From a virus (taxonomy: Duplodnaviria; Heunggongvirae; Uroviricota; Caudoviricetes), in the IMG/VR virus record IMGVR_UViG_2529292920_000008: 18,300 nt of DNA; one strand, written 5' to 3'. The notes under the pieces are model-generated. The model was not told the origin of the DNA and did no database searches. It saw nothing but the letters and a program-made list of their open reading frames with translations. The position numbers and the translations under genes are program-made. Below are positions 1 through 13,439 of this stretch, one piece after another; the first letter of the stretch is position 1, and the number at the start of each line of letters is the position of its first letter.

Positions 1-162
1 GAACCAACCATGCATAATGCTCTGTCTGATGAAAGCTATATATTGAAGTGCGAATATTTTGATCCCATCTTCTTCAACTGTCGCCTGGAATCTCCAGAAA
101 ACAGGCATTCCATCATGTTCAGTTTCTGATTCAGGAAAAGGTACGCTCCATGATTTTGTCAT
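1..162 (-). CDS. hypothetical protein, N-terminal part only (gene runs off the window start); first gene downstream of N in the leftward early operon
   Basis: Minus-strand open frame from ATG at 162 with GAGGTGAG Shine-Dalgarno about 6 nt upstream and no stop to the window edge (MTKSWSVPFPESETEHDG...). Too short for the ORF track. No family recognised. Confidence 0.3.
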   Translation of the reverse strand, partial: MTKSWSVPFPESETEHDGMPVFWRFQATVEEDGIKIFALQYIAFIRQSIMHGWF

Positions 163-220
163 ATCTCACCTCAAATAAGTGGTTTGCTGCCTAATTTCAT
201 TTTCTGGCGACCAACACAAG

Positions 221-493
221 TCATCTTGCTGTCAGTTGTTTGGATTTCCGGTAGCCTGCCGCGTAAAGAGCTACGTTCGGAAGACAAGTTGAGCCTTCAT
301 ATTTTCTGGTCAACGTTGTCAGTGTTATTACTTCTGCTCTCATTGCTGGTTTGCGCTTGCATTGCAAGACCACTCGAGAGGGGGTTGGTCTGTGTAGCTT
401 GTCGGAGCTAATCGCCTCCTGACTTTGCAGGTTTGCGCGACGAGCTCTACGACGAGAAGCTGAGGTGCCTTTAAATTCTGTTTTTCTGGACAT
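221..493 (-). CDS. N: N-type transcription antitermination protein (P22 gene 24-like C-terminus)
   Basis: 90-aa product starting MSRKTEFKGTSASRRRARRANLQ (arginine-rich motif near the N-terminus) and ending ...VALYAAGYRKSKQLTAR, which matches the C-terminus of P22 N as I recall it. GGGAGG Shine-Dalgarno before ATG 493. Sits leftward of the immunity region with a nut-like site upstream. The ORF-track start at 577 is an upstream extension. Confidence 0.7.
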   Translation of the reverse strand: MSRKTEFKGTSASRRRARRANLQSQEAISSDKLHRPTPSRVVLQCKRKPAMRAEVITLTTLTRKYEGSTCLPNVALYAAGYRKSKQLTAR

Positions 494-591
494 AGATTCC
501 TCCCGAATAAACTTTGGTGATGCAATCTCGAAGCTCCTCCTGAGACGGTTGCTTCGGCATTGCATCCCACAGCTCATGTGGTTGGGTGATC

Positions 592-638
592 TGGCTTTTC
601 AGCCACGTAGTCGAGAGTTCGACGTTGTTTAAAGAGCC
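592..638 (-). promoter_or_regulatory. nutL candidate: boxA-like GCTCTTTAAACAA, small hairpin, boxB-like hairpin with GAAA loop
   Basis: On the leftward transcript: GGCUCUUUAAACAA (plus 625-638), hairpin GUCGA-ACUC-UCGAC (plus 610-623), then UGGCU-GAAA-AGCCA (plus 592-605). The same three-part layout recurs downstream of cro. Confidence 0.55.
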
Positions 639-659
639 TGCCAGTCTGTTCCGTTTGGC

Positions 660-892
660 TTCCAGCGTCCTGCTGACGGTTAAATAGTACGATATGTACT
701 TTATTGGGTTAATACTATTTGTTCTAAAATAGGGTGATTTTTTATAACACTTTGTATTTAATAGTGTTGTTTTTTAGCGTGGGTGTATCGCCTCGGCGAT
801 GTAAGGAGAGATCAGAATTGCGTGGTTTAGTGAGTTGTATCTATTTATTTTTCAATAAATACATTTGGTTATGTGTCTTTAGGTGGGGGCGT
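660..892. promoter_or_regulatory. oL/pL candidate region (left operators and leftward early promoter)
   Basis: AT-rich intergenic DNA between the terminator after the DinD-like gene and nutL. Contains near-palindromes AGTACGATATGTACT (680-694) and AACACT-N11-AGTGTT (749-771) that share a TAC-N5-GTA core with the cI/cro intergenic region. Exact operators and -10/-35 not resolved. Confidence 0.35.
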
Positions 893-923
893 GAGGCAAA
901 GAAAACCCGGCGCTGAGGCCGGG
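893..923 (-). terminator. intrinsic terminator on the minus strand, 3' of the DinD-like gene
   Basis: 6-bp GC stem CCCGGC/GCCGGG (906-911 with 918-923), 6-nt loop, followed on the minus strand by UUUUCUUUG. Lies 9 nt past the stop codon at 932-934. Confidence 0.6.
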
Positions 924-931
924 GTATGCAT

Positions 932-1774
932 TTATGGTTTTTTTTGGTCGTGCTTTGCTAGGGCTTTATGAGTTTTCTTAATGCTGCTTCTAACTTTCTG
1001 AATTTTTTCTTGGGAAAGTTTTATGTTTTCAGGGGCTGTTCCAGTGTTAGAAATCATTACATTGCGAACAGATCTCCCTACGGTCTCAGCAGCATTCTCT
1101 AGTTGAGACTGTCCCTTCAGGTTCTGGTTTCTGATTCTTGCTTCTGTCTGTGTAATTCTGAATATATTGGCCGCGAGCTCTTCGCTTCCCATGAAGTCAA
1201 GCATCGTTCCATCTTTTTTAGTTAGGCCTTTTCGAGCTTTCAACTGTGAGAGATTCATATTGTACATCCCACGGTAGCCCGCATTTTGAAATAGACCATA
1301 GTCGACTACTCCGTGTTTATGGGCTACATGACTGAGAGTTTTCTCTCTAGATGTAATCTCGCCACGCAAATAAACTCGATTAACTGCGTCATGGTTATGA
1401 TATGTAGTGTGTATTTCTGCTGCGAGCCCAGCAAAATAAGCTTGTGCATTTGCAACTTTTTGATTGCTGATGTCACCATTCATTACAATCAGATAACAAG
1501 CGAAACGAGTTAATTTAAAGTCATTTTTCGCATTTTCTGAAGGCATCTGGATGAAGTTATCGTATACAGGGATATCGAGGCTCACACATACAGATGTAGC
1601 TTTGTTAATGGCTTTCAATATCTGATCCATGCCATTATATCCAAGCATCATCGCTAAATCAGATGCAAACCAATAGGTAACACCGTTTTCTCTAGCGAAA
1701 TCATCAAATGTTAACTGTGATGTGTCATCGAAAACAGTAATTTGCCTACTCATATCACACCCGAACTTACTCAT
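932..1774 (-). CDS. DinD-like (DNA-damage-inducible protein D family) / Bro-N-like protein; accessory gene in the rexAB slot of the immunity region
   Basis: 280-aa ORF. N-terminal ...VTYWFASDLAMMLGYNG... resembles the Bro-N/KilA-N DNA-binding motif. I recall overall resemblance to DinD-family proteins, but this is memory, not alignment. AT-rich compared with neighbours. Same strand as cI, 80 nt downstream of it, with its own terminator. Confidence 0.6.
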   Translation of the reverse strand: MSKFGCDMSRQITVFDDTSQLTFDDFARENGVTYWFASDLAMMLGYNGMDQILKAINKATSVCVSLDIPVYDNFIQMPSENAKNDFKLTRFACYLIVMNGDISNQKVANAQAYFAGLAAEIHTTYHNHDAVNRVYLRGEITSREKTLSHVAHKHGVVDYGLFQNAGYRGMYNMNLSQLKARKGLTKKDGTMLDFMGSEELAANIFRITQTEARIRNQNLKGQSQLENAAETVGRSVRNVMISNTGTAPENIKLSQEKIQKVRSSIKKTHKALAKHDQKKP

Positions 1775-1854
1775 CGATTTTCCCTTATATTAATATAATG
1801 TGGATAGTTTGTCGCCAACTCGCTAAAGTTATTCATTATGAGGTTTGCCATCCA

Positions 1855-2514
1855 TCACCCAAACGTCTCTTCAGGCCACTGACTAGCGATAACTTTCCCC
1901 ACAACGGAACAACTCTCATTGCATGGGATCATTGGGTATTGTGGATTTAGTGGCTGTAGAAACACCTGACCGCTATCCCTGATCAGTTTCTTGAAGGTAA
2001 ATTCATCACCACCAAGTCTGGCTATGCAGAAATCGCCGGGCTCAACAGCTTGCTCTGGGTCAACCAGAATTAACATCCCGTCAGGAAAACTAGGTTTGGA
2101 ACCTGTTGGGGCGGTCATTGAGTTACCTTCAACCTCAAGCCAGAATGCAGAGTCACTGGCTTTTTTGGTTGTGCTTACCAATCTCTCCGCATCGCCTTTG
2201 GTAAAGGTTCTGAGTTCTGGAGAGAACATCCCAGCCTGAACATGAGAAAAAACAGGGTACTCATATTGTTTTTTAACTGGGGCCGATGAGTATTCGCCAA
2301 CAGGTGAAAATGTCCCGTCGTGGTTGAATGATATGTTATCAATACCAAGGTATTTAAACACCACACCAATATCACTAAGAGATGGATGACGAGATCCGCG
2401 CAACCAGTGTCCAATCCCACCCTGCGTCATACCTAGCTCTTCGGCTAACTTCTCTTGAGTTATGCCGAGCTCTTTCATTCTGGATCTAGCCAGTTCATAC
2501 CATTTCATTTTCAT
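1855..2514 (-). CDS. cI: CI prophage repressor, hybrid: lambda-type C-terminal dimerisation/autocleavage domain with a non-lambda HTH N-terminal domain
   Basis: About 135 C-terminal residues ([26 protein letters not shown]...[12 protein letters not shown]) essentially identical to lambda CI as I recall it. N-terminal [37 protein letters not shown] is an XRE-type HTH unlike lambda. Start taken at ATG 2514 (the ORF-track start at 2676 is an upstream extension); diverges from cro. Confidence 0.9.
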
Positions 2515-2624
2515 GTCCTTATTATTACGCTCTGTATTGCAACCATCCATGCACAATGTGTATTTTTGCTTGCATTCAAAAAGTACATATTGTATTTTTT
2601 CTTCATGGTTACTATGGAGGGCAT
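2515..2624. promoter_or_regulatory. oR/pRM/pR candidate region between divergent cI and cro
   Basis: 110-bp AT-rich spacer between divergent repressor genes. Repeated TGTATT motifs and near-palindrome TACATATTGTA (2583-2593). Possible pR: TTGCAT (2570-2575), 17 bp, TATTTT. Operator boundaries not resolved. Confidence 0.5.
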
Positions 2625-2840
2625 ATGAGCAACCTACGAAAATATCGAGAGTCACTGAATATCTCTCAAACAACACTTGCTAAGGCAGTTGGATGCACAC
2701 AGGGAGCTATCGGACATTGGGAATCTGGTCGTCGCTTCCCAGACCTTAAAACATGCCGTGCTCTTGTTGCGTGTCTAAACAAGTTAGGCGCAAAAGTAAG
2801 TCTTGATGACGTGTTCCCGCCGGAGCACAAAGCCGCTTAA
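2625..2840 (+). CDS. cro: Cro-like repressor (XRE-family HTH)
   Basis: 71 aa from ATG 2625 with GGAGGG Shine-Dalgarno. HTH segment [21 protein letters not shown]. Divergent from cI across the operator region. Confidence 0.8.
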
Positions 2841-2850
2841 TAAGCGGAGC

Positions 2851-2896
2851 CGCTCTTTGTAACAACGGACATTCGTCCTACGTCGCTGAAAAGCGA
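2851..2896 (+). promoter_or_regulatory. nutR candidate: boxA CGCTCTTTGTAACAA, small hairpin, boxB-like hairpin with GAAA loop
   Basis: CGCTCTTT at 2851-2858, hairpin GGAC-ATTC-GTCC at 2867-2878, hairpin TCGCT-GAAA-AGCGA at 2883-2896. Same layout as the nutL candidate. Confidence 0.55.
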
Positions 2897-2981
2897 GCCC
2901 CAAGATATCTGACCAACTAAGGCCATATGCGTTTCCACGCATACCTTTCAACTAACTATTCACTATTGGAAATCTTAAGAA

Positions 2982-3278
2982 ATGGAACAAACAAGTTACA
3001 GCAAACTATCACAGCGTGACGTTGATCGCGCAGAAACAGATTTACTCATCAACCTGTCAACGCTTACCCAGCGTGGTCTGGCAAAGATGATTGGCTGTCA
3101 TGAATCGAAGATAAGCAGAACGGACTGGCGGTTTATTGCTTCGGTCTTGTGTGCTTTCGGAATGGCATCAGACATCAGTCCAATTAGCAGGGCTTTTAAG
3201 TATGCGCTTGATGGAATCACAAAGAAAAAACGCCCGGCGGCAACCGAGCGTTCTGAACAAATCCAGATGGAGTTCTGA
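2982..3278 (+). CDS. cII: CII transcriptional activator (lambda-type C-terminus)
   Basis: 98 aa; C-terminal KKRPAATERSEQIQMEF identical to lambda CII as recalled; N-terminal part diverged. Sits between cro and O. Confidence 0.85.
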   Translation: MEQTSYSKLSQRDVDRAETDLLINLSTLTQRGLAKMIGCHESKISRTDWRFIASVLCAFGMASDISPISRAFKYALDGITKKKRPAATERSEQIQMEF

Positions 3279-3310
3279 GGTCATTACTGGATCTATCAAC
3301 AGGAGTCATT

Positions 3311-4210
3311 ATGACAAATACAGCAAAAATACTCAACTTCGGCAGAGGTAACTTTGCCGGACAGGAGCGTAATGTGGCAGATCTCGATGATGGTTACGCC
3401 AGACTATCAAATATGCTGCTTGAGGCTTATTCAGGCGCAGATCTGACCAAGCGACAGTTTAAAGTGCTGCTTGCCATTCTGCGTAAAACCTATGGGTGGA
3501 ATAAACCAATGGACAGAATCACCGATTCTCAACTTAGCGAGATTACAAAGTTACCCGTCAAACGGTGCAATGAAGCCAAGTTAGAACTCGTCAGAATGAA
3601 TATTATCAAGCAGCAAGGCGGCATGTTTGGACCAAATAAAAACATCTCAGAATGGTGTATCCCTCAAAACGAGGGAAAATCCCCTAAAACGAGGGATAAA
3701 ACATCCCTCAAATTGGGGGATTGCTATCCCTCAAAACAGGGGGACACAAAAGACACTATTACAAAAGAAAAAAGAAAAGATTATTCGTCCGAGAATTCTG
3801 GCGAATCCTCTGACCAGCCAGAAAACGATCTTTCTGTGGTTAAACCGGATGCTGCAATTCAGAGCGGCAGCAAGTGGGGAACAGCAGAAGACCTGACCGC
3901 CGCAGAGTGGATGTTTGACATGGTGAAGACCATCGCGCCATCAGCCAGAAAACCGAATTTTGCTGGGTGGGCTAACGATATCCGCCTGATGCGTGAACGT
4001 GACGGACGTAACCACCGCGATATGTGTGTGCTTTTCCGCTGGGCCTGCCAGGACAACTTCTGGTCCGGTAACGTGCTGAGTCCGGCCAAACTCCGCGACA
4101 AGTGGACCCAGCTCGAAATCAACCGTAACAAGCAACAGGCAGGCGTGACAGCCAGCAAACCAAAACTCGACCTGACAAACACTGACTGGATTTACGGGGT
4201 GGATTTATGA
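3311..4210 (+). CDS. O: replication initiator protein O (lambda type)
   Basis: 299 aa, near-identical over its length to lambda O as recalled (MTNTAKILNFGRGNFAGQERNVADLDDGYARL...). Contains the ori iterons internally. Confidence 0.95.
   Translation: MTNTAKILNFGRGNFAGQERNVADLDDGYARLSNMLLEAYSGADLTKRQFKVLLAILRKTYGWNKPMDRITDSQLSEITKLPVKRCNEAKLELVRMNIIKQQGGMFGPNKNISEWCIPQNEGKSPKTRDKTSLKLGDCYPSKQGDTKDTITKEKRKDYSSENSGESSDQPENDLSVVKPDAAIQSGSKWGTAEDLTAAEWMFDMVKTIAPSARKPNFAGWANDIRLMRERDGRNHRDMCVLFRWACQDNFWSGNVLSPAKLRDKWTQLEINRNKQQAGVTASKPKLDLTNTDWIYGVDL
3655..3790. repeat. ori-lambda-type replication origin: four iterons plus AT-rich tract inside gene O
   Basis: Four ~18-20 bp inverted-repeat iterons (ATCCCTCAAAACGAGGGA, AATCCCCTAAAACGAGGGA, ATCCCTCAAATTGGGGGA, ATCCCTCAAAACAGGGGGA) followed by an A-rich tract ACAAAAGAAAAAAGAAAAGATTATT. 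Confidence 0.85.
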
Positions 4211-4908
4211 AAAACATCGCCGCACAGATGGTTAACTTTGACCGTGAGCAGATGCGTCGGATCGCCAACAACATGCCGGAACAGTACGACGAAAAGCCGC
4301 AGGTACAACAGGTAGCGCAGATCATCAACGGTGTGTTCAGCCAGTTACTGGCAACTTTCCCGGCGAGCCTGGCTAACCGTGACCAGAACGAACTGAACGA
4401 AATCCGCCGCCAGTGGGTTCTGGCTTTCCGGGAAAACGGGATCACCACAATGGAACAGGTTAACGCAGGAATGCGCGTAGCCCGTCGGCAGAATCGACCA
4501 TTTCTGCCATCACCCGGGCAGTTTGTTGCATGGTGCCGGGAAGAAGCATCCGTTATCGCCGGACTGCCAAACGTCAGCGAGCTGGTTGATATGGTTTACG
4601 AGTATTGCCGGAAGCGAGGCCTGTATCCGGATGCGGAGTCTTATCCGTGGAAATCAAACGCGCACTACTGGCTGGTTACCAACCTGTATCAGAACATGCG
4701 GGCCAATGCGCTTACTGATGCGGAATTACGCCGTAAGGCCGCAGATGAGCTTGTCCATATGACTGCGAGAATTAACCGTGGTGAGTCGATCCCTGAACCA
4801 GTAAAACAACTTCCTGTCATGGGCGGTAGACCTCTAAATCGTGCACAGGCTCTGGCGAAGATCGCAGAACTCAAAGCTAAGTTCGGACTGAAAGGAGCAA
4901 GTGTATGA
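4207..4908 (+). CDS. P: replication protein P (DnaB helicase loader, lambda type)
   Basis: 233 aa, near-identical to lambda P as recalled. Overlaps the O stop and the ren start (ATGA overlaps). Confidence 0.95.
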   Translation: MKNIAAQMVNFDREQMRRIANNMPEQYDEKPQVQQVAQIINGVFSQLLATFPASLANRDQNELNEIRRQWVLAFRENGITTMEQVNAGMRVARRQNRPFLPSPGQFVAWCREEASVIAGLPNVSELVDMVYEYCRKRGLYPDAESYPWKSNAHYWLVTNLYQNMRANALTDAELRRKAADELVHMTARINRGESIPEPVKQLPVMGGRPLNRAQALAKIAELKAKFGLKGASV

Positions 4909-5195
4909 CGGGCAAAGAGGCAATTATTCATTACCTGGGGACGCATAATAGCTTCTGTGCGCCGGACGTTGCCGCGCTAACAGGCGCAACAGTAACCAGC
5001 ATAAATCAGGCCGCGGCTAAAATGGCACGGGCAGGTCTTCTGGTTATCGAAGGTAAGGTCTGGCGAACGGTGTATTACCGGTTTGCTACCAAGGAAGAAC
5101 GGGAAGGAAAGATGAGCACGAACCTAATTTTTAAGGAGTGTCGCCAGAGTGCCGCGATGAAACGGGTATTGGCGGTATATGGAGTTAAAAGATGA
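4905..5195 (+). CDS. ren: Ren protein (lambda type)
   Basis: 96 aa, near-identical to lambda Ren as recalled (MTGKEAIIHYLGTHNSFCAPDVAALTG...). Immediately follows P. Confidence 0.9.
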   Translation: MTGKEAIIHYLGTHNSFCAPDVAALTGATVTSINQAAAKMARAGLLVIEGKVWRTVYYRFATKEEREGKMSTNLIFKECRQSAAMKRVLAVYGVKR

Positions 5196-5220
5196 CCATC
5201 TACATCACTGAGCTAATAAC

Positions 5221-5253
5221 AGGCCTGCTGGTAATCGCAGGCCTTTTTATTTG
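5221..5253 (+). terminator. intrinsic terminator (tR2-like) downstream of ren
   Basis: Perfect 8-bp stem AGGCCTGC/GCAGGCCT with 8-nt loop, followed by TTTTTATTTG. Confidence 0.7.
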
Positions 5254-5267
5254 GGGGAGAGTAAATC

Positions 5268-5594
5268 GTGGCTGACTGGCAAATACCAATCATCATTCTT
5301 GCCGGAGCTTCGCTGGTTGCTGGCTTTATCCTGCTGAAGAAGCATAAAGACCGTGATCAAAAAGTCGAAGTTCTCTATGGGTATCCGGCGAACAGCACAA
5401 CATGGCTGACTATTTACCACTACCGAAAATCAGGCCGTTGGGTATTCGAATGGGATGATCTGTTTGCTGAAAAGCGACCAAAGTCATGGGGAGACATCAG
5501 CGAATGCATGATGTTTGAAGAAAGAAAATCCGGCGCAACCCGAGAAGAGTTTAACGAAGCGTGGAGGCGATTAAGTGAGAGGGGGTATCAATGA
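5268..5594 (+). CDS. hypothetical single-pass membrane protein (N-terminal TM helix plus ~85-aa soluble domain)
   Basis: 108-aa ORF from GTG 5268 with GGGGGAGAG Shine-Dalgarno. N-terminal hydrophobic segment IPIIILAGASLVAGFILL followed by a charged KKHKDRDQK stretch. No family recognised. Lies where lambda has the ren-ninB junction. Confidence 0.55.
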   Translation: MADWQIPIIILAGASLVAGFILLKKHKDRDQKVEVLYGYPANSTTWLTIYHYRKSGRWVFEWDDLFAEKRPKSWGDISECMMFEERKSGATREEFNEAWRRLSERGYQ

Positions 5595-5616
5595 GCAGAA
5601 TTAAGTCGAGGTAACA

Positions 5617-6063
5617 ATGAAGCAAATATACATGCTTCGCAACGAAGCAATCAGAAACAACGCCATAGACGCAATACTCTCACTTCCGATCGACGACAAG
5701 TCACCTCACGAAGTCCACATTAAAGAACCCAGGCGGAGCAATCCTCAAAACCGCCTTATGTGGGCGTTATTGCAGGACGTATCACGTCAGGTGCTTTGGC
5801 ATGGAAAGAGACTTGCGCCGGAGGACTGGAAAGATCTGTTCACTGCCCTGTGGCTTAAGACCAAAAAACTGGAGCAACGAAGTGCGCCTGGTATCGACGG
5901 TGGCGTTGTCATGCTTGGCGTGCGTACCAGCAAAATGCGAAAGGCCAGCATGACTGAGCTTATCGAAATCATGTTCTGGTTCGGCTCAGAGCGCAACGTG
6001 CGGTGGAGTGATGACTCCCGGCGAGAGTATGAATGGTCACAACGAAAAGGTAGGGCTGCATGA
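5617..6063 (+). CDS. ninB: NinB-like recombination protein (Orf family)
   Basis: 148 aa with recalled similarity to lambda NinB (NRSxxQNRxxWAxLxDVSRQVxWHG, GxRxSKMR, KWSDD motifs). Confidence 0.8.
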   Translation: MKQIYMLRNEAIRNNAIDAILSLPIDDKSPHEVHIKEPRRSNPQNRLMWALLQDVSRQVLWHGKRLAPEDWKDLFTALWLKTKKLEQRSAPGIDGGVVMLGVRTSKMRKASMTELIEIMFWFGSERNVRWSDDSRREYEWSQRKGRAA

Positions 6064-6587
6064 CTATCAAATCAAATACGCCAGCACACGACAAGGACTG
6101 CTGGCAAACGCCGCTTTGGCTTTTTGATGCACTGGATATTGAGTTTGGATTCTGGCTGGATTCGGCAGCGAGCGACAAAAATGCTCTGTGCGCTCACTGG
6201 CTAACTGAGGCTGACGACGCGCTAAATTCTGAGTGGGTAAGCCACGGTGCAATCTGGAATAACCCACCGTACAGCAATATCAGGCCGTGGGTGGAAAAAG
6301 CCGCTGAGCAGTGTATACAACAACGACAGACGGTAGTGATGCTTGTGCCAGAGGATATGTCAGTCGGATGGTTCAGCAAGGCTCTGGAGAGTGTCGACGA
6401 AGTTCGTATTATCACTGATGGACGGATTAATTTTGTCGAACCATCGACAGGACTGGAGAAGAAGGGAAACAGCAAAGGTTCCATGCTGCTGATTTGGCGA
6501 CCGTTCATCAGTTCTCGACGGATGTTTACTACTGTATCCAAAGCGGCATTGATGGCGATCGGGCAGGGCGTCAGGAGGGCAGCATGA
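6060..6587 (+). CDS. phage DNA N6-adenine methyltransferase (Dam-like, small phage MTase family)
   Basis: 175 aa with DCWQTP...[11 protein letters not shown]...LDSAAS near the N-terminus, catalytic NPPY motif ([10 protein letters not shown]), and [13 protein letters not shown] near the C-terminus. ATGA overlaps with ninB and ninE. Confidence 0.8.
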
Positions 6588-6766
6588 GACGACAGCGACG
6601 AAGTTTCACCGACATCATCTGCGAAAACTGCAAATACCTTCCAACGAAACGCTACAGAAATAAACGCAAGCCAATCCCAAAAGAATCTGACGTAAAAACC
6701 TTCAACTACACGGCTCACCTGTGGGATATCCGGTGGCTAAGACATTGTGCGAGGAAAACAAGGTGA
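6584..6766 (+). CDS. ninE: NinE-like protein
   Basis: 60 aa [60 protein letters not shown], near-identical to lambda NinE as recalled. AGGAGGG Shine-Dalgarno before ATG 6584. Confidence 0.85.
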
Positions 6767-6933
6767 TTGACCAAAATCGAAGTTACGAACAAGAAAGCGT
6801 CGAGCGAGCTTTAACGTGCGCTAACTGCGGTCAGAAGCTGCATGTGCTGGAAGTTCACGTGTGTGAGCACTGTTGCGCAGAACTTATGAGCGATCCGAAT
6901 AGCTCAATGTACGAGGAAGAAGACGATGAATGA
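6763..6933 (+). CDS. ninF: NinF-like protein (Cys-rich)
   Basis: [56 protein letters not shown], near-identical to lambda NinF as recalled. Start assigned to GTG 6763 overlapping the ninE stop; start uncertain. Confidence 0.7.
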
Positions 6934-7648
6934 GTTAATAAATGGCAATGCCATAAAAATGACAAGCATTGAAATCGCTGAGTTGGTTGGTAAGCGTCAT
7001 GACAATGTGAAACGTACCATCGAAACGCTGGCTAAAAATGGTGTTATCCGGCTTCCTCAAATTGAGGATTGTGGAAGAATCAATGGGTTAGGCTTAAATC
7101 AAAGTTTTTGTGTGTATGTATTCGAAGGCGAACAAGGAAAGCGAGACAGTATTGTCGTTGTAGCCCAGTTGTCGCCGGAATTCACGGCTCGCCTTGTTGA
7201 CCGTTGGCGAGAGCTTGAAGAAGCTGCGGTTAATATCCCAAAAACGCTACCAGAAGCGTTGCGCCTTGCTGCTGACCTTGCTGAGCAGAAAATGCAACTG
7301 GAAAACCAGCTAGCAATTGCCGCACCTAAAGTTGAGTTTGCCGATCGCGTTGGCGAGGCCAGCGGAATTTTGATTGGAAACTTTGCAAAGGTTGTTGGAA
7401 TTGGTCCAAACAAACTGTTTGCGTGGATGCGCGATCACAAAATCCTTATTGCTTCAGGTTCCCGGCGCAATGTGCCAATGCAGGAATATATGGATCGCGG
7501 CTATTTCACAGTGAAAGAAACAGCGGTCAACACAAATCACGGAATACAGATATCGTTCACCACAAAAATCACCGGGTGTGGTCAACAGTGGCTGACCAGA
7601 AAGCTGCTCGATAACGGAATGCTGAAAGTAACAGGGGAGGCTGCTTAA
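6926..7648 (+). CDS. phage antirepressor-type protein (Rha-like N-terminal region plus AntB/KilAC-like C-terminal domain)
   Basis: 240 aa. N-terminal MTSIEIAELVGKRHDNVKRTIETL resembles the Rha regulatory motif; C-terminal half resembles Ant-type antirepressor C-domains. Family assignment from memory. Confidence 0.7.
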   Translation: MNELINGNAIKMTSIEIAELVGKRHDNVKRTIETLAKNGVIRLPQIEDCGRINGLGLNQSFCVYVFEGEQGKRDSIVVVAQLSPEFTARLVDRWRELEEAAVNIPKTLPEALRLAADLAEQKMQLENQLAIAAPKVEFADRVGEASGILIGNFAKVVGIGPNKLFAWMRDHKILIASGSRRNVPMQEYMDRGYFTVKETAVNTNHGIQISFTTKITGCGQQWLTRKLLDNGMLKVTGEAA

Positions 7649-7938
7649 TGGCTAACCTACGCAAAGAAGCTCGCGGCAGAGAATGCCAGGTACGTATTTA
7701 CGGCGTATGCAATGGCAACCCTGAAACTACAGTTCTGGCACATTACCGGATGGCTGGAATTTGCGGAACGGGAATGAAGCCTGACGACCTGATCGGCGCA
7801 TGGGCTTGTAGCGCGTGTCACGATGAAATCGACCGACGCACCCATAACCTCGACAACAAAGACGCCAGACTTTACCACCTCGAAGGCGTGATCAGGACGC
7901 AGGCGATACTGCTGAAGGAGGGGAAGATTAAGCCATGA
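7648..7938 (+). CDS. YbcO-like protein (DUF1364, Cys/His-rich putative nuclease of the nin region)
   Basis: 96 aa with ARGRECQVRIYGVCNGNPETTVLAHYR and WACSACHDEIDRRTH motifs, matching recalled DLP12 YbcO. Immediately precedes rusA, as in DLP12. Confidence 0.75.
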   Translation: MANLRKEARGRECQVRIYGVCNGNPETTVLAHYRMAGICGTGMKPDDLIGAWACSACHDEIDRRTHNLDNKDARLYHLEGVIRTQAILLKEGKIKP

Positions 7939-8297
7939 ACGAATATCAGTTTGTGCTTCCATACCCGCCGTCGGTGAATACCTACTGGCGAAGACGGGGA
8001 GGCCAATACTACATCAGCGATAAAGGCCAGAAATACCGAAAAGACGTTCAGCAAATCATTCGCCAACTCAAGTTAGACATTTTCACCAAATCACGACTCC
8101 GTATCAAAGTCATCGCAGACGTTCCAGACTCCCGCCGCCGCGACCTCGACAACATCCTGAAAGGTTTACTCGACTCCCTTATCCACGCCGGATTTGCGGA
8201 AGACGACGAGCAATTCGATGACATTCGCGTAATTCGTGGTGTGAAAGTACCAGGCGGAAGGCTTGGAATAAAAATCACCGAACTGGAGAACACATGA
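7935..8297 (+). CDS. rusA: RusA-family Holliday junction resolvase
   Basis: 120 aa with LPYPPSVNTYW, RRRDLDN and GGRLGIKITE motifs typical of RusA. ATGA overlap with the YbcO-like gene. Confidence 0.9.
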   Translation: MNEYQFVLPYPPSVNTYWRRRGGQYYISDKGQKYRKDVQQIIRQLKLDIFTKSRLRIKVIADVPDSRRRDLDNILKGLLDSLIHAGFAEDDEQFDDIRVIRGVKVPGGRLGIKITELENT

Positions 8298-8428
8298 ACA
8301 AAGCATTCGAACGATATATGCGCCAGCGTTATGGCAATCGCTACGATCTTACCCGCGATGCTTACGGCTTCTACTGTCGTGAGGTTGTGAAACGAATGTT
8401 TGAAGTGTGGTGTCATTGCAAAGGATAG
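8294..8428 (+). CDS. small hypothetical protein (44 aa), translationally coupled to rusA, in the position of DLP12 ylcG
   Basis: ATG 8294 overlaps the rusA stop (ATGA). Product MNKAFERYMRQRYGNRYDLTRDAYGFYCREVVKRMFEVWCHCKG; stop TAG at 8426-8428. Below the ORF-track length cutoff. Confidence 0.45.
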   Translation: MNKAFERYMRQRYGNRYDLTRDAYGFYCREVVKRMFEVWCHCKG

Positions 8429-8439
8429 AGGGGAAGACG

Positions 8440-9063
8440 ATGAGACTCGAAAGCGTAGCTAAATTTCATTCGCCAAAAAGCCCGATGATGAGCGACTCAC
8501 CACGGGCCACGGCTTCTGACTCTCTTTCCGGTACTGATGTGATGGCTGCTATGGGGATGGCGCAATCACAAGCCGGATTCGGAATGGCTGCATTCTGCGG
8601 TAAGCACGAACTCAGCCAGAACGACAAACAAAAGGCTATCAACTATCTGATGCAATTTGCACACAAGGTATCGGGGAAATACCGTGGCGTGGCAAAGCTT
8701 GAAGGAAATACTAAGGCAAAGGTACTGCAAGTGCTCGCAACATTCGCTTATGCGGATTATTGCCGTAGTGCCGCGACGCCGGGCGCAAGATGCAGAGATT
8801 GCCACGGTACAGGCCGTGCGGTTGATATAGCCAAAACAGAGCAGTGGGGGATAGTTGCTGAGAAAGAGTGCGGAAGATGTAAAGGCGTCGGTTATTCAAG
8901 AATGCCAGCAAGCGCCGCATATCGCGCTGTGACGATGCTAATCCCAAACCTTACCCAACCCACCTGGTCACGCACTGTTAAGCCGCTGTATGACGCTCTG
9001 GTTGTGCAATGCCACAAGGAAGAGTCAATCGCAGACAACATTTTGAATGCGATCACACGTTAG
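8440..9063 (+). CDS. Q: late gene antiterminator Q (lambda type)
   Basis: 207 aa from MRLESVAKFHSPKSPMMSDSPRATASD..., near-identical to lambda Q as recalled. The ORF-track start at 8407 is an upstream extension. Confidence 0.95.
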   Translation: MRLESVAKFHSPKSPMMSDSPRATASDSLSGTDVMAAMGMAQSQAGFGMAAFCGKHELSQNDKQKAINYLMQFAHKVSGKYRGVAKLEGNTKAKVLQVLATFAYADYCRSAATPGARCRDCHGTGRAVDIAKTEQWGIVAEKECGRCKGVGYSRMPASAAYRAVTMLIPNLTQPTWSRTVKPLYDALVVQCHKEESIADNILNAITR

Positions 9064-9099
9064 CGCCATGATTGCCACGGATGGCAACATATTAACGGC

Positions 9100-9160
9100 A
9101 TAATATTGACTTTTTGAATAACTTTGGGGAAACTTGACACCAATAATGGGCGTTTTTTAC
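9100..9160 (+). promoter_or_regulatory. late promoter PR' with qut-like region (lambda-like)
   Basis: ATTGACTTTTTGAATAACTTTGGGGAAACTTGACACCAATAATGGGCG closely parallels the lambda PR'/qut sequence as recalled. -35 TTGACT at 9107-9112, 17-bp spacer, -10-like GAAACT. Confidence 0.5.
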
Positions 9161-9300
9161 ATGTCATTGATGAGTCTCAATAACCTGCCGCCGAGTAGTT
9201 TTTATGCTCTGAATTGTATTTGTGTAGTAAACATGCTGACTGCAATGTAATAGAGTTTTTTTAGCCTGTAACCTCTTGACGGCATTGAATTGCTTTTGTT

Positions 9301-10059
9301 ATGAGTTGTAAGCCAATGTTATCATCTTGTATTGGGGTGGTTATGAAGGATGGTGCACTGCTCAGGAGTTCTTCACTTTTTATTGCCTACATGGGATGCC
9401 TTGGATGGGGGAGTGCTTATTTCTATGGATGGGGTACTTCTTTTTACTACGGCTTCCCATGGTGGATTGTAGGTGCAGGTGTTGATGATGTTGCCAGAAG
9501 TTTATTTTTTGCAGTTATCGTCATTGCTATATTTCTTATCGGTTGGGGTATTGGTGTTGTATTCTTTTTCGCAGTGAAAAGAAAACATTCTATGCAAGAG
9601 CTAAATGTATTTCGCCTTTATTTTGCTGTGGAATTATTGTTTGTGCCGGCAATTATTGAGTTTTCTATATTGAGACAGAAGATTCAGGTACCTCTTTTGC
9701 TACTGTCAGCAGCGATTGCGCTGGCGGTTACAATTTCGATAAGATCTTATGGGCGATTTTTATCGGTATCATGCTTCTATGATAAGCCATTTATAAAAAA
9801 ACATTTTTTTGAGATTGTGATGATTGCTTTTGTGGCATATTTTGGGCTTTTTTCATTTCTGACAGGATATTACAAACCACAGTTTAAGAAAGAATATGAA
9901 ATGATTAATTATAATGATGGTTGGTATTATGTTCTTGCTCGTTATGATAATTGTCTGGTTTTGTCTACTTCTTTCAATGCAGGTAGTAAAAGGTTTGTCA
10001 TTTATCAATCAGCACAAGATAAGAATCTTCAGGTTGATATTGTAAGGACCAGAATTTAA
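9301..10059 (+). CDS. hypothetical multi-pass inner-membrane protein; moron between PR' and the lysis cassette
   Basis: 252-aa ORF (alternative start ATG 9343 behind GGGGTGG) with about 5 hydrophobic helices (e.g. LFFAVIVIAIFLIGWGIGVVFFFAV) and a ~50-aa hydrophilic C-terminal tail. AT-rich relative to flanking genes. No family recognised. Confidence 0.6.
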   Translation: MSCKPMLSSCIGVVMKDGALLRSSSLFIAYMGCLGWGSAYFYGWGTSFYYGFPWWIVGAGVDDVARSLFFAVIVIAIFLIGWGIGVVFFFAVKRKHSMQELNVFRLYFAVELLFVPAIIEFSILRQKIQVPLLLLSAAIALAVTISIRSYGRFLSVSCFYDKPFIKKHFFEIVMIAFVAYFGLFSFLTGYYKPQFKKEYEMINYNDGWYYVLARYDNCLVLSTSFNAGSKRFVIYQSAQDKNLQVDIVRTRI

Positions 10060-10489
10060 TTGGCTGCATAAATAATATTTTAAGTTGCAAGTTGGCTATT
10101 CGTAGGAATAGAACCTTAGGCATGCTGAATGCGTTTTCTGAACATTGTTTTATAAACTGTGTCTGCTTGCTGTTGTGATCCTGCTTTTAGTGATGGTGAT
10201 GATGGATTTCACCAGCAGGATAATGTTGGTACTGACTGATGGCGCTCTGGTCTGCGGCATTGTGGTATTGCTGTGGCCGATGATGAAAGAACAGAATGAA
10301 TAATCCTTGACTTTTTTGTTTACTGTTTATTAAAAAATCAACCGCATGGTGAATCCTCCTTGGAGGGGCTAAATGATCGAGTTTTAAGGGCACGTAGCGA
10401 GTTCTGTTTGATCATTGCAGAACTTAGCGGGAGGCGCCATGCGTACATCACTAATGTTATTTCCTTCTATCATTTTCCTTGTGAGTTCT

Positions 10490-10516
10490 GGCTGCGCATG
10501 GCGCGGCCTTTTTTTT
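10490..10516 (+). terminator. intrinsic terminator, plus strand (tR'-like candidate)
   Basis: 8-bp stem GGCTGCGC/GCGCGGCC (one G-U pair), 3-nt loop, followed by eight T residues. Confidence 0.6.
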
Positions 10517-10692
10517 ATGACCTGCCACTGGCAGATGGTCATCCTGTGATTTGATTCCGGTTCCGGCTTTTTAACTCTGTTCCTGTACACGGGAGAAATT
10601 CTATGTCGATTAATCGTTATGATATTGGTTACAAGAAGTACCACGTATTGTGTTGAGATAGAAAGCATGGTGCCAGAGGTAAATGCAGCAGC

Positions 10693-10745
10693 ATAATAAA
10701 AAAGAGCCAGCGCAGAAGAGAACGGGTAAAAGAGTCTGCGCTGGC
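10693..10745 (-). terminator. intrinsic terminator, minus strand
   Basis: Perfect 11-bp inverted repeat GCCAGCGCAGA / TCTGCGCTGGC (10706-10716 with 10735-10745), 18-nt loop, followed on the minus strand by CUCUUUUUUAUUAU. Confidence 0.45.
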
Positions 10746-10861
10746 GTGGGGATATTCCCCGTGGAGAAATGATATGTAACACACATCGGGAACCTTTCTA
10801 TATAAACATTATCATTATTGTCAATCATAACAGTCAGGTATTATGACGTTTATGCATCAGG

Positions 10862-10893
10862 GCCATCAGGAATTAACTGGTGGCTTTTTATTG
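10862..10893 (+). terminator. intrinsic terminator, plus strand, just upstream of the holin gene
   Basis: 8-bp stem GCCATCAG/CTGGTGGC (one G-U pair), 7-nt loop, then TTTTTATTG. Confidence 0.5.
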
Positions 10894-10924
10894 TTGTCAG
10901 CTTCCGGATAACGGGAGACGGAGT

Positions 10925-11140
10925 ATGTATCAGATGGAAAAAATCACAACAGGTGTGTCATACACCACGTCAGCGGTGGGGACGGGATACTGGTTACTGC
11001 AGCTGCTGGACAAAGTCTCTCCGTCCCAGTGGGTGGCAATAGGTGTGCTGGGAAGTCTGCTGTTTGGCCTGCTGACGTATCTGACAAATCTTTATTTCAA
11101 GATTAAAGAAGATAAGCGTAAGGCTGCGAGAGGTGAATAA
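10925..11140 (+). CDS. class II holin / pinholin (phage 21 S-like) with dual-start motif
   Basis: 71 aa [71 protein letters not shown]: two TM segments, Met1/Met4 dual start, charged C-terminus; resembles S21 as recalled. GGGAGACGGAG Shine-Dalgarno. Confidence 0.85.
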
Positions 11141-11637
11141 TGTCGCCGTCATTACGCAAGGCTGTTGCAGCTGCTATTGGTGGTGGGGCTGTTGCCATAG
11201 CGTCTGTGCTCATCACTGGTCCAGGTGGTAACGATGGTCTGGAAGGTGTCAGCTACATACCATACAAAGATATCGTTGGCGTATGGACTGTATGTCACGG
11301 ACACACCGGAAAAGACATCATGCCCGGTAAAACGTATACCGAAGCAGAATGCAAAGCCCTCCTGAATAAAGACCTTGCCACGGTCGCCAGACAAATTAAC
11401 CCGTACATCAACGTCGATATACCGGAAACAACGCGCGGCGCTCTTTACTCGTTCGTTTACAACGTGGGCGCTGGCAATTTCAGAACATCGACGCTTCTTC
11501 GCAAAATAAACCAGGGTGATATCAAAGGCGCATGTGACCAGCTACGTCGCTGGACATACGCTGGCGGTAAGCAATGGAAAGGGCTGATGACCCGTCGTGA
11601 TATTGAGCGTGAAGTCTGTTTGTGGGGGCAGCAATGA
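11140..11637 (+). CDS. SAR endolysin (lysozyme with N-terminal signal-anchor-release domain, R21-like)
   Basis: 165 aa with a Gly/Ala-rich weakly hydrophobic N-terminus ([20 protein letters not shown]) followed by a lysozyme-like domain. Directly follows the pinholin, a known functional pairing. Confidence 0.85.
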
Positions 11638-12101
11638 GCAGGGTAACCGCGATTATCTCCGCTCTGGTTATTTGCATCATCCTCTGCCTGTCATGGGCTG
11701 TTAATCATTACCGTGATAACGCCATCGCCTACAAAGAGCAGCGTGATAAAAAAGTCAGTGAGCTGAAGCAGGCGACCGCCACCATTACTGACATGCAGCA
11801 ACGCCAGCGTGCTGCTGATGTACTCGATGCTAAATACACGAAGGAGTTAGCCAATGCGAAAGCTGAAAATGATGCTCTTCGGCGTAAGCTTGATAATGGT
11901 GGTCGGGTGCTCGTCAAAGGAAAATGCCCTGTGCCAGCCTCAGCCAAAACCTCCAGCTCCTCCGGCATGGGCAATGATGCCACCGTCGAACTCTCTTCAG
12001 TTGCTGGACGAAACGTTCTCGGTATCCGGGACGGAATTATCCGTGACCAAACAGCACTGAGAACGCTTCAGGAGTACATCAGGACGCAATGCCTGAAATA
12101 A
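11634..12101 (+). CDS. Rz: Rz i-spanin (N-terminus lambda-like, C-terminal half diverged)
   Basis: [31 protein letters not shown]... matches lambda Rz over roughly the first 100 residues as recalled; the C-terminus differs. ATGA overlap with the endolysin stop. Confidence 0.9.
11854..12060 (+). CDS. Rz1: Rz1 o-spanin lipoprotein, embedded in the +1 frame of Rz
   Basis: [21 protein letters not shown]...: signal peptide with lipobox-like VVGC and a proline-rich mature region ([12 protein letters not shown]). Embedded arrangement typical of Rz/Rz1. Confidence 0.8.
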
Positions 12102-12133
12102 TTTTTTTGCAAATCACAAAGTCAATTTAATGA

Positions 12134-12156
12134 GCCTCGCGATGCGGGGCTTTTTT
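12134..12156 (+). terminator. intrinsic terminator after the lysis cassette
   Basis: 7-bp stem GCCTCGC/GCGGGGC (one G-U pair), 3-nt loop, followed by TTTTTT. Confidence 0.6.
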
Positions 12157-12299
12157 ATGTCCGCAGTAAACGCGCATCTCACGCGCATATTAACGAGAGC
12201 CTTTCAGTAAGCGAGCCTGAGAAATGCCGTTATAGGTGGCGACCTCTCTCGGGCGGCTTTTCTGTGAGACAGGCTCACTTTCTAAAAGGTAAAGACGCT

Positions 12300-12824
12300 A
12301 TGAATAATCATTCAGTTATTCCAGCCTTCGACTTCCGAGAAATGGTGCAAGCCAAAAACGGAGAGGTCGTTACCACATCCAGAAAAATTGCCAAGTACTT
12401 CGGCAAGCGACACGGTGATGTTCTCAGGAAAATCGAGCAGGTTAAGGCTGATTGCTCGCGTGAGTTTAGCCAACGCAATTTTGCGTCGGCTGATTATATC
12501 GATGAGCAGGGCAAGGTTCGCCCGATGTACAGCCTGACGAAAGATGGCTGGATCATGGTTGTGATGGGGTTCACCGGGAAAGCTGCTGCGGCAATCAAGG
12601 AGAGCTATATCGCAGCATTCAACTGGATGGCAGAGCAACTGAGCCGCCGCATGGCAATTGGCGAAGAAATGCAGCACCGCTACGCCATCAAAGAAACACG
12701 CTCAAAGCTGAAAGGTACGATCGGCAGTCGGTTAATGAACGAACGGAAGAAAGAGAAGCGTGTCCTGGCTGTCGAGCATGAATACATTTTGCAGGTGACA
12801 CAGCCTGAACTGCTGATTAATTGA
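12300..12824 (+). CDS. Rha-family phage regulatory protein
   Basis: N-terminal VVTTSRKIAKYFGKRHGDVLRKIEQV matches the Rha N-terminal motif. Start taken at ATG 12300 (the ORF track gives GTG 12264). Sits between the lysis cassette and cos. Confidence 0.7.
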   Translation: MNNHSVIPAFDFREMVQAKNGEVVTTSRKIAKYFGKRHGDVLRKIEQVKADCSREFSQRNFASADYIDEQGKVRPMYSLTKDGWIMVVMGFTGKAAAAIKESYIAAFNWMAEQLSRRMAIGEEMQHRYAIKETRSKLKGTIGSRLMNERKKEKRVLAVEHEYILQVTQPELLIN

Positions 12825-13220
12825 AGATGTCATTACAAAGCCTATCTACGGGTGGGCTTGATAATGGCTTATACCCTGCACGGGATAACTTAACTGATAT
12901 CCCTTTTAACGGATAAAGGTATTCAAGCCTGACACATCATGCGCTGTATCGTCGCCGTATTCCCGCATTAACCATGATCGTAGCCCGACGGGGAATTCCT
13001 TCTGCGTGAGTGTGCGGGAATAATCAAAAACGATGCACACCGGGTTTTTACCGCGTTTATGATTCGTGGGTTTGTCCCTCATGCTCGCCAGTCCTGTGCG
13101 GGGGTGGAAGAAACAGGACGCTCACACAGATTCTTGTAGGTACGATGCTATTCCTTTCTGGATTATCCCGATGCCATTCATGCAGGGCGCTGTATCAGAC
13201 GTTCGTCATGGCTGTCAGGC

Positions 13221-13270
13221 TGACGGGTCCTCCTGGTGGGGTGGCCTGCCACGGGGCGGGAGCGTCGCGG
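13221..13270. other. cos site candidate (cosQ/cosN region), lambda-like
   Basis: TGACGGGTCCTCCTGGTGGGGTGGCCTGCCACGGGGCGGGAGCGTCGCGG aligns with the lambda right-end/left-end junction as recalled (ACGGGTCCT ... ACGGGGCGG ... CGCGG). Lies ~175 bp upstream of the small terminase gene, as in lambda. Confidence 0.55.
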
Positions 13271-13439
13271 AAAAAGGCTAGTTTTTGAAATTTCATTCGT
13301 CATCACCACTGCTGTAATTGATTGATATTGCAGTAGTTTTATTTTTGCGGTGTCGATTTTGATTGTTTTTTGTTCATCACTAACACCGTTTGCCTAAAGT
13401 TGTTCGCAAGATGCATGTTTAAAACATTCTGGAGCGGGT

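What the first reader, a model, noticed from the sequence alone, without database searches (positions are those of the whole stretch)
6060..6587. Phage Dam-type methyltransferase in the nin region in place of ninC/ninD
The NPPY motif and N-terminal DxWxTP/LFDALD signature identify a small phage N6-adenine methyltransferase, embedded in the ninB/ninE/ninF cluster by ATGA overlaps. Such orphan methyltransferases are used by phages to evade restriction or tune gene expression. Its target specificity is unknown.
Basis: partly seen in the sequence, partly recalled or inferred. Interest (0 to 1): 0.35.

Follow-up and report, generated by a model that had tools for sequence, protein, structure and literature searches.

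The report
Known lambdoid-phage Dam methyltransferase gene
This is an intact copy of a small DNA adenine methyltransferase gene that is already annotated in hundreds of lambda-like phages and about a quarter of complete E. coli genomes, and whose near-identical Shiga-toxin-phage version is reported to methylate GATC, so it is ordinary.

Summary
Window 6060-6587 (+) is an intact 175-aa ORF with NPPY (aa 68-71), DCWQTP and LFDALD. It is joined to ninB and ninE by ATGA start/stop overlaps. It matches Pfam PF05869 (E 5e-64) and the NCBIfam equivalog TIGR01712 'phage N-6-adenine-methyltransferase' (264 bits, cut-off 97). The window is a lambdoid prophage of EPEC E2348/69, where RefSeq already gives the gene that name. 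Near-identical copies (95-99% nt) are in 244 phage records (HK140, mEp043, many Stx phages) and in 1540 of 5426 complete E. coli genomes. Against lambda, the block 5262-6590 (a 108-aa ORF, ninB, dam) sits where lambda has ninB-ninC-ninD, so 'in place of ninC/ninD' is right for this phage. Another prophage (E. coli B7A) has ninB-dam-ninC-ninD, so dam is an add-on cassette rather than an allele. The protein is 98.9% identical to VT2-Sakai orf32, the only amino-methyltransferase-motif ORF in that phage. The VT-2 Dam (M.EcoVT2Dam) is reported to methylate GATC, and so, from my own memory of the older papers, are family members T1 Dam and HP1 Dam. Verdict: already known, low interest.

The parts
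6060..6587 (+). dam: phage N-6-adenine DNA methyltransferase, 175 aa (PF05869 / TIGR01712). Motif IV NPPY at aa 68-71; motif-I-like strand plus LDSAAS at aa 31-38.
5617..6063 (+). ninB (Orf recombination mediator). Its stop overlaps the dam start (ATGA).
6584..6766 (+). ninE. Its start overlaps the dam stop (ATGA). The lambda-homologous block resumes at 6591.
6763..6933 (+). ninF (GTGA overlap with ninE).
5221..5244 (+). Intrinsic-terminator-like hairpin plus T-run between ren and the nin genes. It lies inside the block that is 98.5% identical to lambda and maps to about lambda 40596-40619, the ren/ninB gap. From my own knowledge this is where lambda tR2 lies. It implies that dam expression needs N antitermination.
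5262..6590 (+). Mosaic block with no lambda DNA match (108-aa ORF, a divergent ninB allele, dam). It occupies the position of lambda ninB-ninC-ninD.
221..577 (-). N antiterminator gene (PF25694), needed for read-through into the nin region.

Best explanation
This is a functional delayed-early gene of a lambdoid prophage. It encodes a minimal, single-domain, SAM-dependent N6-adenine DNA methyltransferase of the phage Dam family (PF05869/TIGR01712), most probably specific for GATC.

Shown here: the ORF is intact and all family-invariant residues are present. The predicted fold is a class-I methyltransferase core with the NPPY loop and no separate target-recognition domain. The gene sits in the rightward early operon, downstream of a tR2-like terminator, and its reading frame overlaps ninB and ninE by ATGA.

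Inferred: it is transcribed from PR only after repressor loss and N-mediated antitermination, that is, during lytic growth or induction. The ATGA overlaps suggest translational coupling. The enzyme flips out the target adenine, binds it at NPPY and transfers the methyl group of SAM to N6. Host Dam is limiting during rapid phage replication, so the phage enzyme tops up G(m6A)TC methylation of progeny DNA. That would protect the DNA in a next host against restriction enzymes blocked by GATC methylation, keep MutH-type processing off phage DNA, and might influence the stability of lysogeny.
For: Family membership: Pfam PF05869 E 5e-64 over 167 of 169 profile positions; NCBIfam equivalog TIGR01712 at 264 bits against a cut-off of 97; PHROG 111 'DNA methyltransferase', 4e-87. 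Catalytic and invariant residues are intact: T17, P18, L33, D34, A36, N68-P-P-Y-S72, D99, S101, W104, F125 and K139 are invariant in 41 homologues and present here. Many of them are also shared with T1 Dam (32% id) and HP1 Dam (35% id). The AF2 model has pLDDT 89.5 and pTM 0.87, with alternating strands and helices. Its Foldseek neighbours are all adenine-N6 or other SAM methyltransferases: PCIF1 (9e-5), CamA, E. coli Dam. Conservation: 244 phage records at 95-99% nt and 1540 of 5426 E. coli genomes. GATC: 98.9% aa identity to VT2-Sakai orf32, the sole amino-MTase-motif ORF of that phage. M.EcoVT2Dam is 'known to target 5'-GATC-3'' (PMC6602927). Dam-like activity is shown for VT-2, and the enzyme is not a homologue of cellular Dam (PMC7139368). 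Expression: the identical protein of phage Phi24B was detected in lysogen cultures, and its transcript level changed significantly on induction (PMC3342100). Operon context: N, cI-like, cro-like, cII, O, P, ren, terminator, nin genes, Q. Lambda and P22 virion DNA is under-methylated by host Dam (PMC8022706).
Against: No activity was measured for this allele. The equation M.EcoVT2Dam = orf32 is inferred by elimination, because the 2001 paper could not be read. The window protein has S152 where 38 of 41 homologues have P, and V126 where most have I; the effect is unknown but probably nil. Methylome studies of lysogens cannot separate this enzyme from host Dam (PMC6602927), so in-vivo activity from the prophage is not demonstrated. 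Over-produced Dam-like enzymes can methylate off-target (discussion in PMC10810198), so GATC reported from a plasmid clone is not proof of strict specificity. The biological benefit is inference only.
Confidence: 0.82

Rival explanations
1. It is an active adenine methyltransferase with relaxed or non-GATC specificity. It would act as a broad anti-restriction enzyme, like the non-specific prophage enzymes M.EcoGII or Hia5, made possible by the lack of a target-recognition domain.
For: It is only 175 aa, and no separate TRD is visible in the model. Other E. coli and Serratia prophage methyltransferases are non-specific (PMC5778455; PMC7556043). Specificity inferred from over-expression can mislead.
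Against: The non-specific enzymes belong to other classes: M.EcoGII is a 349-aa beta-class enzyme and the Drozdz enzymes are alpha-class. The 98.9%-identical VT-2 enzyme is reported as GATC-specific. T1 and HP1 Dam, of the same family, are GATC enzymes (my recollection of the literature cited).
Confidence: 0.08
2. Its physiological substrate is RNA or single-stranded nucleic acid rather than duplex DNA. This would parallel the Stx-phage MT-A70 'DNA methyltransferase', which turned out to methylate 16S rRNA.
For: The best solved structural neighbour is PCIF1/CAPAM, an mRNA cap-adenosine N6-methyltransferase (E 9e-5, TMq 0.57-0.61). E. coli Dam matches only weakly (E about 0.03, TMq 0.34). There is a precedent for a mis-named prophage methyltransferase (PMC10810198).
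Against: That precedent is a different family (MT-A70, DPPW motif, next to int) and needs a partner subunit. The match to PCIF1 covers only the shared catalytic core at 14-15% identity. Family members are reported to methylate GATC in DNA.
Confidence: 0.05
3. It is an inactive relic carried along by nin-region mosaicism.
For: nin genes are non-essential (PMC8022706). This allele carries S152 in place of the near-invariant P.
Against: The frame is intact, all invariant catalytic residues are present, and full-length copies are strongly conserved in 1540 genomes and 244 phages. The protein was detected for the Phi24B copy.
Confidence: 0.05

Closest known systems
VT2-Sakai orf32 (NP_050531.1; very probably M.EcoVT2Dam), Phi24B Dam, and the copies in HK97, HK140, mEp043 and Stx phages
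   Same: It is the same gene. It has 98.9% aa identity (two substitutions, V126I and S152P), the same 175-aa length and the same ninB-dam-ninE position.
   Different: Nothing of substance differs. The host prophage here is not an Stx phage, and it has lambda-type O/P/ren and Q modules.
Coliphage T1 Dam (YP_003925.1) and Haemophilus phage HP1 Dam (orf13, NP_043482.1)
   Same: They belong to the same Pfam/NCBIfam family. They share the DxWxTP, LD..A, NPPYS, D.S..WF and GN.K motifs. HP1 Dam has the same minimal size of 173 aa.
   Different: Identity is only 32-35%. T1 Dam has a 45-residue N-terminal extension and a 14-residue insertion. Genome context differs (a virulent siphovirus and a P2-like phage).
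E. coli Dam / T4 Dam (PF02086, alpha class)
   Same: The chemistry is the same (N6-adenine, D/NPPY) and the reported target is the same (GATC).
   Different: There is no sequence match. The fold match is weak (E about 0.03, TMq 0.34). Those enzymes carry a dedicated DNA-recognition domain that is absent here. Radlinska's group states that the VT-2 enzyme is not a homologue of cellular Dam.
Other E. coli prophage methyltransferases: M.EcoGI/GII (beta class, non-specific) and M.EcoGV / M.EcoPA8orf6770P (MT-A70)
   Same: They are prophage-borne orphan adenine methyltransferases found in the same kinds of lambdoid phages.
   Different: They belong to different families and sit at different positions. 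M.EcoGII is 349 aa with DPPY, then a TRD, then FxGxG. The MT-A70 enzyme has DPPW, lies next to int, and acts on 16S rRNA with a partner protein.
PCIF1/CAPAM catalytic domain (PDB 6irv-6is0)
   Same: It is the nearest solved fold (E 9e-5 to 6e-4, TMq 0.56-0.61) and is an N6-adenosine methyltransferase.
   Different: It is a eukaryotic mRNA-cap enzyme of about 470-490 residues in the crystal constructs. Identity is 14-15% and only the core is shared.

Membership tests
Phage N-6-adenine-methyltransferase (Pfam PF05869 Dam; NCBIfam TIGR01712 equivalog) | Full-length HMM match above the curated cut-off | tested here: met
   PF05869: 215.4 bits against 28.1, profile positions 1-167 of 169. TIGR01712: 263.6 bits against 97.05, positions 1-165 of 165.
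Phage N-6-adenine-methyltransferase (Pfam PF05869 Dam; NCBIfam TIGR01712 equivalog) | Catalytic motif IV (D/N)PP(Y/F) intact | tested here: met
   NPPY at aa 68-71, invariant in 41 homologues and in T1 and HP1 Dam.
Phage N-6-adenine-methyltransferase (Pfam PF05869 Dam; NCBIfam TIGR01712 equivalog) | N-terminal conserved DxWxTP and the LD..A segment after the first strand (SAM-binding region) intact | tested here: met
   D13, W15, T17, P18, L33, D34, A36 and A37 are conserved. Their role in SAM binding is inferred, not shown.
Phage N-6-adenine-methyltransferase (Pfam PF05869 Dam; NCBIfam TIGR01712 equivalog) | Single-domain class-I methyltransferase fold of about 170 aa | tested here: met
   AF2 pLDDT 89.5, pTM 0.87. 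Foldseek hits are SAM-dependent adenine methyltransferases.
Phage N-6-adenine-methyltransferase (Pfam PF05869 Dam; NCBIfam TIGR01712 equivalog) | N6-adenine DNA methylation activity | not testable with these tools
   Literature only, for the 98.9%-identical VT-2 enzyme.
GATC-specific 'Dam-like' enzymes (functional class) | Methylates the A of GATC (DpnI-sensitive, MboI-resistant DNA from a dam- host) | not testable with these tools
   Inferred from M.EcoVT2Dam and the by-elimination identification with orf32. GATC is neither avoided nor enriched in the window: 67 observed, 71 expected.
Lambda nin-region gene (delayed-early, N-dependent, non-essential) | Lies between ren/tR2 and Q on the rightward strand, tightly packed with ATGA overlaps | tested here: met
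   Gene order: ren, terminator, ORF108, ninB, dam, ninE, ninF, ant, ybcO, rusA, Q. Overlaps confirmed.
Cellular Dam / T4 Dam family (PF02086) | HMM or sequence match to MethyltransfD12 | tested here: not met
   No such Pfam hit. No PDB sequence hit. Only a weak fold match to E. coli Dam.
MT-A70 family and beta-class N4/N6 methylases (M.EcoGV, M.EcoGII types) | HMM match; DPPW, or DPPY followed by a TRD and FxGxG | tested here: not met
   Pfam reports only PF05869.

The most novel reading that the evidence does not exclude
The minimal nin-region Dam, which has no target-recognition domain and whose nearest solved fold is the RNA cap-adenosine methyltransferase PCIF1, may not be a strict GATC DNA enzyme in vivo. 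It could have a second substrate (RNA or ssDNA replication intermediates) or a relaxed specificity. This would parallel the recent re-assignment of another Stx-phage 'DNA methyltransferase' to 16S rRNA.
Probability: 0.07. Interest if true: 0.5.

Novelty: already known. Interest (0 to 1): 0.08.

Why it matters
It matters little as a discovery. The gene is named correctly in RefSeq, is present in about 28% of complete E. coli genomes, and was cloned from an Stx phage in 2001. Two points remain open for the family as a whole. First, how does a 175-residue enzyme with no recognition domain read GATC? No structure of the family is solved. Second, what does a phage gain from duplicating the host's Dam specificity? 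Possibilities are full methylation of progeny DNA, protection in dam-less or MboI-type hosts, or an effect on lysogen stability.

Tried and rejected
(1) PDB sequence search found no homologue; the best hits have E 0.25-0.74 and are noise.

(2) I tested whether this is the non-specific M.EcoGII type. Rejected: that enzyme is a 349-aa beta-class protein.

(3) I tested whether it is the Stx-phage rRNA methyltransferase, M.EcoGV / M.EcoPA8orf6770P. Rejected: that enzyme is MT-A70 with a DPPW motif and lies next to int. VT2-Sakai orf4, at that position, is DUF551.

(4) Literature searches for 'ninB' plus 'N-6-adenine-methyltransferase', for PF05869 and for TIGR01712 gave only annotation-level mentions.

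(5) Four papers could not be retrieved: Radlinska & Bujnicki 2001 (PMID 11720311), Murphy et al. 2008 (PMC2223730), and two PMC ids I tried from memory (PMC3879109 for Fang et al. 2012 and PMC3837797 for a review of phage orphan methyltransferases).

(6) The 174-aa antisense ORF at 6194-6718 (-) is a mechanical shadow of the dam/ninE frame. There is no evidence for it, and RefSeq does not annotate it.

(7) GATC frequency in the window is uninformative: 67 observed, 71 expected.

(8) The sigma-70-like hit inside dam (6385-6412, 9 of 12) is not above the shuffle expectation: 5 sites found against a mean of 8.4.

Full report
**Observation.** Window 6060-6587 (+) is an ATG-initiated ORF of 175 codons plus stop. 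Its product carries NPPY at residues 68-71, DCWQTP at 13-18 and LFDALD at 21-26. The sequence shows ATGA at 6060-6063, where the ninB stop overlaps the dam start. It shows ATGA again at 6584-6587, where the dam stop overlaps the ninE start. The next junction, ninE/ninF, is GTGA. The flanking ORFs are NinB (PF05772, 4e-48), NinE (PF05322, 7e-41) and NinF (PF05810, 2e-12).

**Identity.**
- Pfam PF05869 'DNA N-6-adenine-methyltransferase (Dam)': E 5.3e-64, 215 bits against a gathering score of 28, covering 167 of 169 profile positions.
- NCBIfam equivalog TIGR01712 'phage N-6-adenine-methyltransferase': 264 bits against a cut-off of 97.
- PHROG 111 'DNA methyltransferase': 4e-87.

**Source.** The nin segment of the window is 100% identical to the chromosome of EPEC O127:H6 E2348/69. 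The whole window aligns to that lambdoid prophage at 99.73% over positions 1-17924. RefSeq already annotates this ORF there as 'phage N-6-adenine-methyltransferase', WP_000153283.1.

**How common it is.** Copies at 95-99% nucleotide identity occur in 244 phage records. These include HK140, mEp043, many 'Lambda_ev' isolates and Stx1/Stx2-converting phages, nearly always annotated as a methyltransferase between NinB and NinE. Copies also occur in 1540 of 5426 complete E. coli genomes, up to five per genome. More distant relatives (27-48% aa) are spread over about 1,700 further phage records from Klebsiella, Vibrio, Lactococcus, Gordonia and others.

**Context and 'in place of ninC/ninD'.** The window carries a typical lambdoid early region:
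- leftward: N, a BRO-family gene, and a cI-like LexA/S24 repressor;
- rightward: cro-like, cII, O, P, ren;
- then a terminator-like hairpin at 5221-5244, a 108-aa ORF, ninB, dam, ninE, ninF;
- then a KilAC/Rha antirepressor, YbcO, RusA and Q, followed by lysis and head genes.

A DNA comparison with lambda gives three blocks: window 3217-5261 = O/P/ren (98.5%), 6591-6928 = ninE/ninF (96.5%) and 8426-9138 = Q (96.1%). The unmatched block 5262-6590 (ORF108, a divergent ninB allele, dam) lies where lambda has ninB-ninC-ninD. Its right edge falls within a few bases of the dam/ninE junction. It is not a general rule: a prophage of E. coli B7A has ninB-dam-ninC-ninD-ninE. dam is therefore an optional cassette inserted after ninB, not an allele of ninC/ninD.

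**Anatomy of the protein.** An alignment of 41 full-length homologues (58-98% identity) has 44 invariant columns. These include T17, P18, L33, D34, A36, N68-P-P-Y-S72, D99, S101, W104, F125 and K139, and all are present here. Many are also shared with coliphage T1 Dam (32% identity) and Haemophilus phage HP1 Dam (35%).

The AlphaFold2 model is confident (pLDDT 89.5, pTM 0.87). It shows a compact alternating strand/helix core, with NPPY just after strand 64-68. No additional domain that could serve as a target-recognition domain is visible. The least confident internal stretch, residues 121-140, may be the DNA-contacting element, but that is a guess.

No family member has a solved structure by sequence search. 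By fold, the best PDB neighbours are the catalytic domains of PCIF1/CAPAM (E 9e-5 to 6e-4, TMq 0.56-0.61). CamA, the EcoR124I HsdM subunit and E. coli Dam follow at E 0.02-0.2. All of these are SAM-dependent methyltransferases and most act on adenine N6.

**Specificity.** The protein differs at two positions (V126I, S152P) from VT2-Sakai orf32.
- In VT2-Sakai, orf32 is the only ORF with a D/N-PP-Y/F/W motif: a six-frame scan covered the first 35 kb and pattern searches covered the remaining 26 kb.
- It is also the only ORF that the original 1999 record marked 'similar to DNA methylase'.
- Forde et al. state that M.EcoVT2Dam of prophage VT2-Sa 'is known to target 5'-GATC-3'', citing Radlinska & Bujnicki 2001 (PMC6602927).
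- Radlinska's group later wrote that Dam-like activity has been shown for P1, VT-2 and the T-even phages, and that only the T2/T4 enzymes are homologues of cellular Dam (PMC7139368). That fits a PF05869 enzyme.

I could not read the 2001 paper, so the equation M.EcoVT2Dam = orf32 is by elimination. From my own knowledge, T1 Dam (Scherzer, Auer & Schweiger 1987, cited) and HP1 Dam (Piekarowicz & Bujnicki 1999, cited) are also GATC enzymes. T1-type Dams match TIGR01712/PF05869. GATC is therefore the best-supported target, at about 0.8.

**How it most likely works.** The position downstream of a tR2-like terminator and upstream of Q, on the PR strand, predicts N-dependent delayed-early expression during induction or infection. 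The ATGA overlaps predict translational coupling with ninB and ninE (inference; the packing is described for all lambdoid phages in PMC8022706). The identical protein of phage Phi24B was detected immunologically in lysogen cultures, and its transcript level changed significantly on induction (PMC3342100).

Lambda and P22 virion DNA is under-methylated by host Dam (PMC8022706). The most economical role is therefore topping up G(m6A)TC on rapidly replicating phage DNA. Possible benefits are protection against GATC-methylation-sensitive restriction in the next host, avoidance of MutH cleavage, or an influence on lysogen stability; host Dam is required for stable 933W lysogeny, as cited. All of these benefits are inference.

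**Rivals.**
- A relaxed or non-GATC specificity is conceivable for so small an enzyme. However, the known non-specific prophage enzymes belong to other classes.
- An RNA substrate is suggested only by the PCIF1 fold match and by the precedent of the unrelated MT-A70 Stx-phage enzyme.
- An inactive relic is unlikely, given intact invariant residues and wide conservation.

**Verdict.** The gene is already known and correctly annotated, so interest is low.

Noticed in passing
window 5268-5594 (+): A 108-aa ORF (GTG start) between the tR2-like terminator and ninB has no Pfam hit and a hydrophobic N-terminus (IPIIILAGASLVAGFILL). RefSeq calls it a hypothetical protein. It is part of the block with no lambda DNA match.
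   Followed up: no
window 9301-10059 (+) and 10384-10782 (-): Between Q and the holin lie a 252-aa ORF with no Pfam hit, then a reverse-strand 132-aa ORF with only a sub-threshold hit. This is the 'moron' slot where Stx phages carry stx. RefSeq annotates them as hypothetical proteins, and adds a DUF3927 gene.
   Followed up: no
window 17925-18300: The window matches the E2348/69 prophage at 99.73% up to 17924 (inside the portal gene region) and does not align after that. The nin region is 100% identical. The window therefore probably comes from a closely related but not identical prophage or strain.
   Followed up: partly
L008 (E. coli B7A, NZ_CP035812.1) 2064-4210: This prophage has ninB-dam-ninC-ninD-ninE. 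The methyltransferase cassette coexists with ninC/ninD there rather than replacing them.
   Followed up: yes
window 6926-8297 (+): After ninF this phage has a Rha/KilAC antirepressor, YbcO (a putative nuclease) and RusA. Lambda has ninG (Rap), ninH and ninI at this position, so this is an alternative junction-resolvase module.
   Followed up: partly
proteins P0002, P0005, P0011, P0013, P0022: The protein database holds fusion products: Dam+NinE (233-235 aa), Dam+CII, RusA+Dam and Dam+NinB. They are most likely frameshifts or assembly and gene-calling artefacts at the overlapping ATGA junctions.
   Followed up: no
window 6513-6515 (codon 152 of dam): This allele has Ser152 where 38 of 41 homologues, including VT2-Sakai, have Pro. 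It also has Val126 where most have Ile. The consequence is unknown.
   Followed up: partly
window 932-1774 (-): A BRO-family (Bro-N domain) gene lies between N and the cI-like repressor. It is an accessory gene inside the immunity region.
   Followed up: no
AF2 model of window 6060-6584: The nearest solved fold is the mRNA cap-adenosine N6-methyltransferase PCIF1/CAPAM (E 9e-5, TMq about 0.6). It is clearly closer than E. coli Dam (E about 0.03). No structure of the PF05869 family is in the PDB.
   Followed up: partly
window 6194-6718 (-): A 174-aa antisense ORF spans dam and ninE. It is not annotated in RefSeq and has no support, so it is treated as a shadow ORF.
   Followed up: partly
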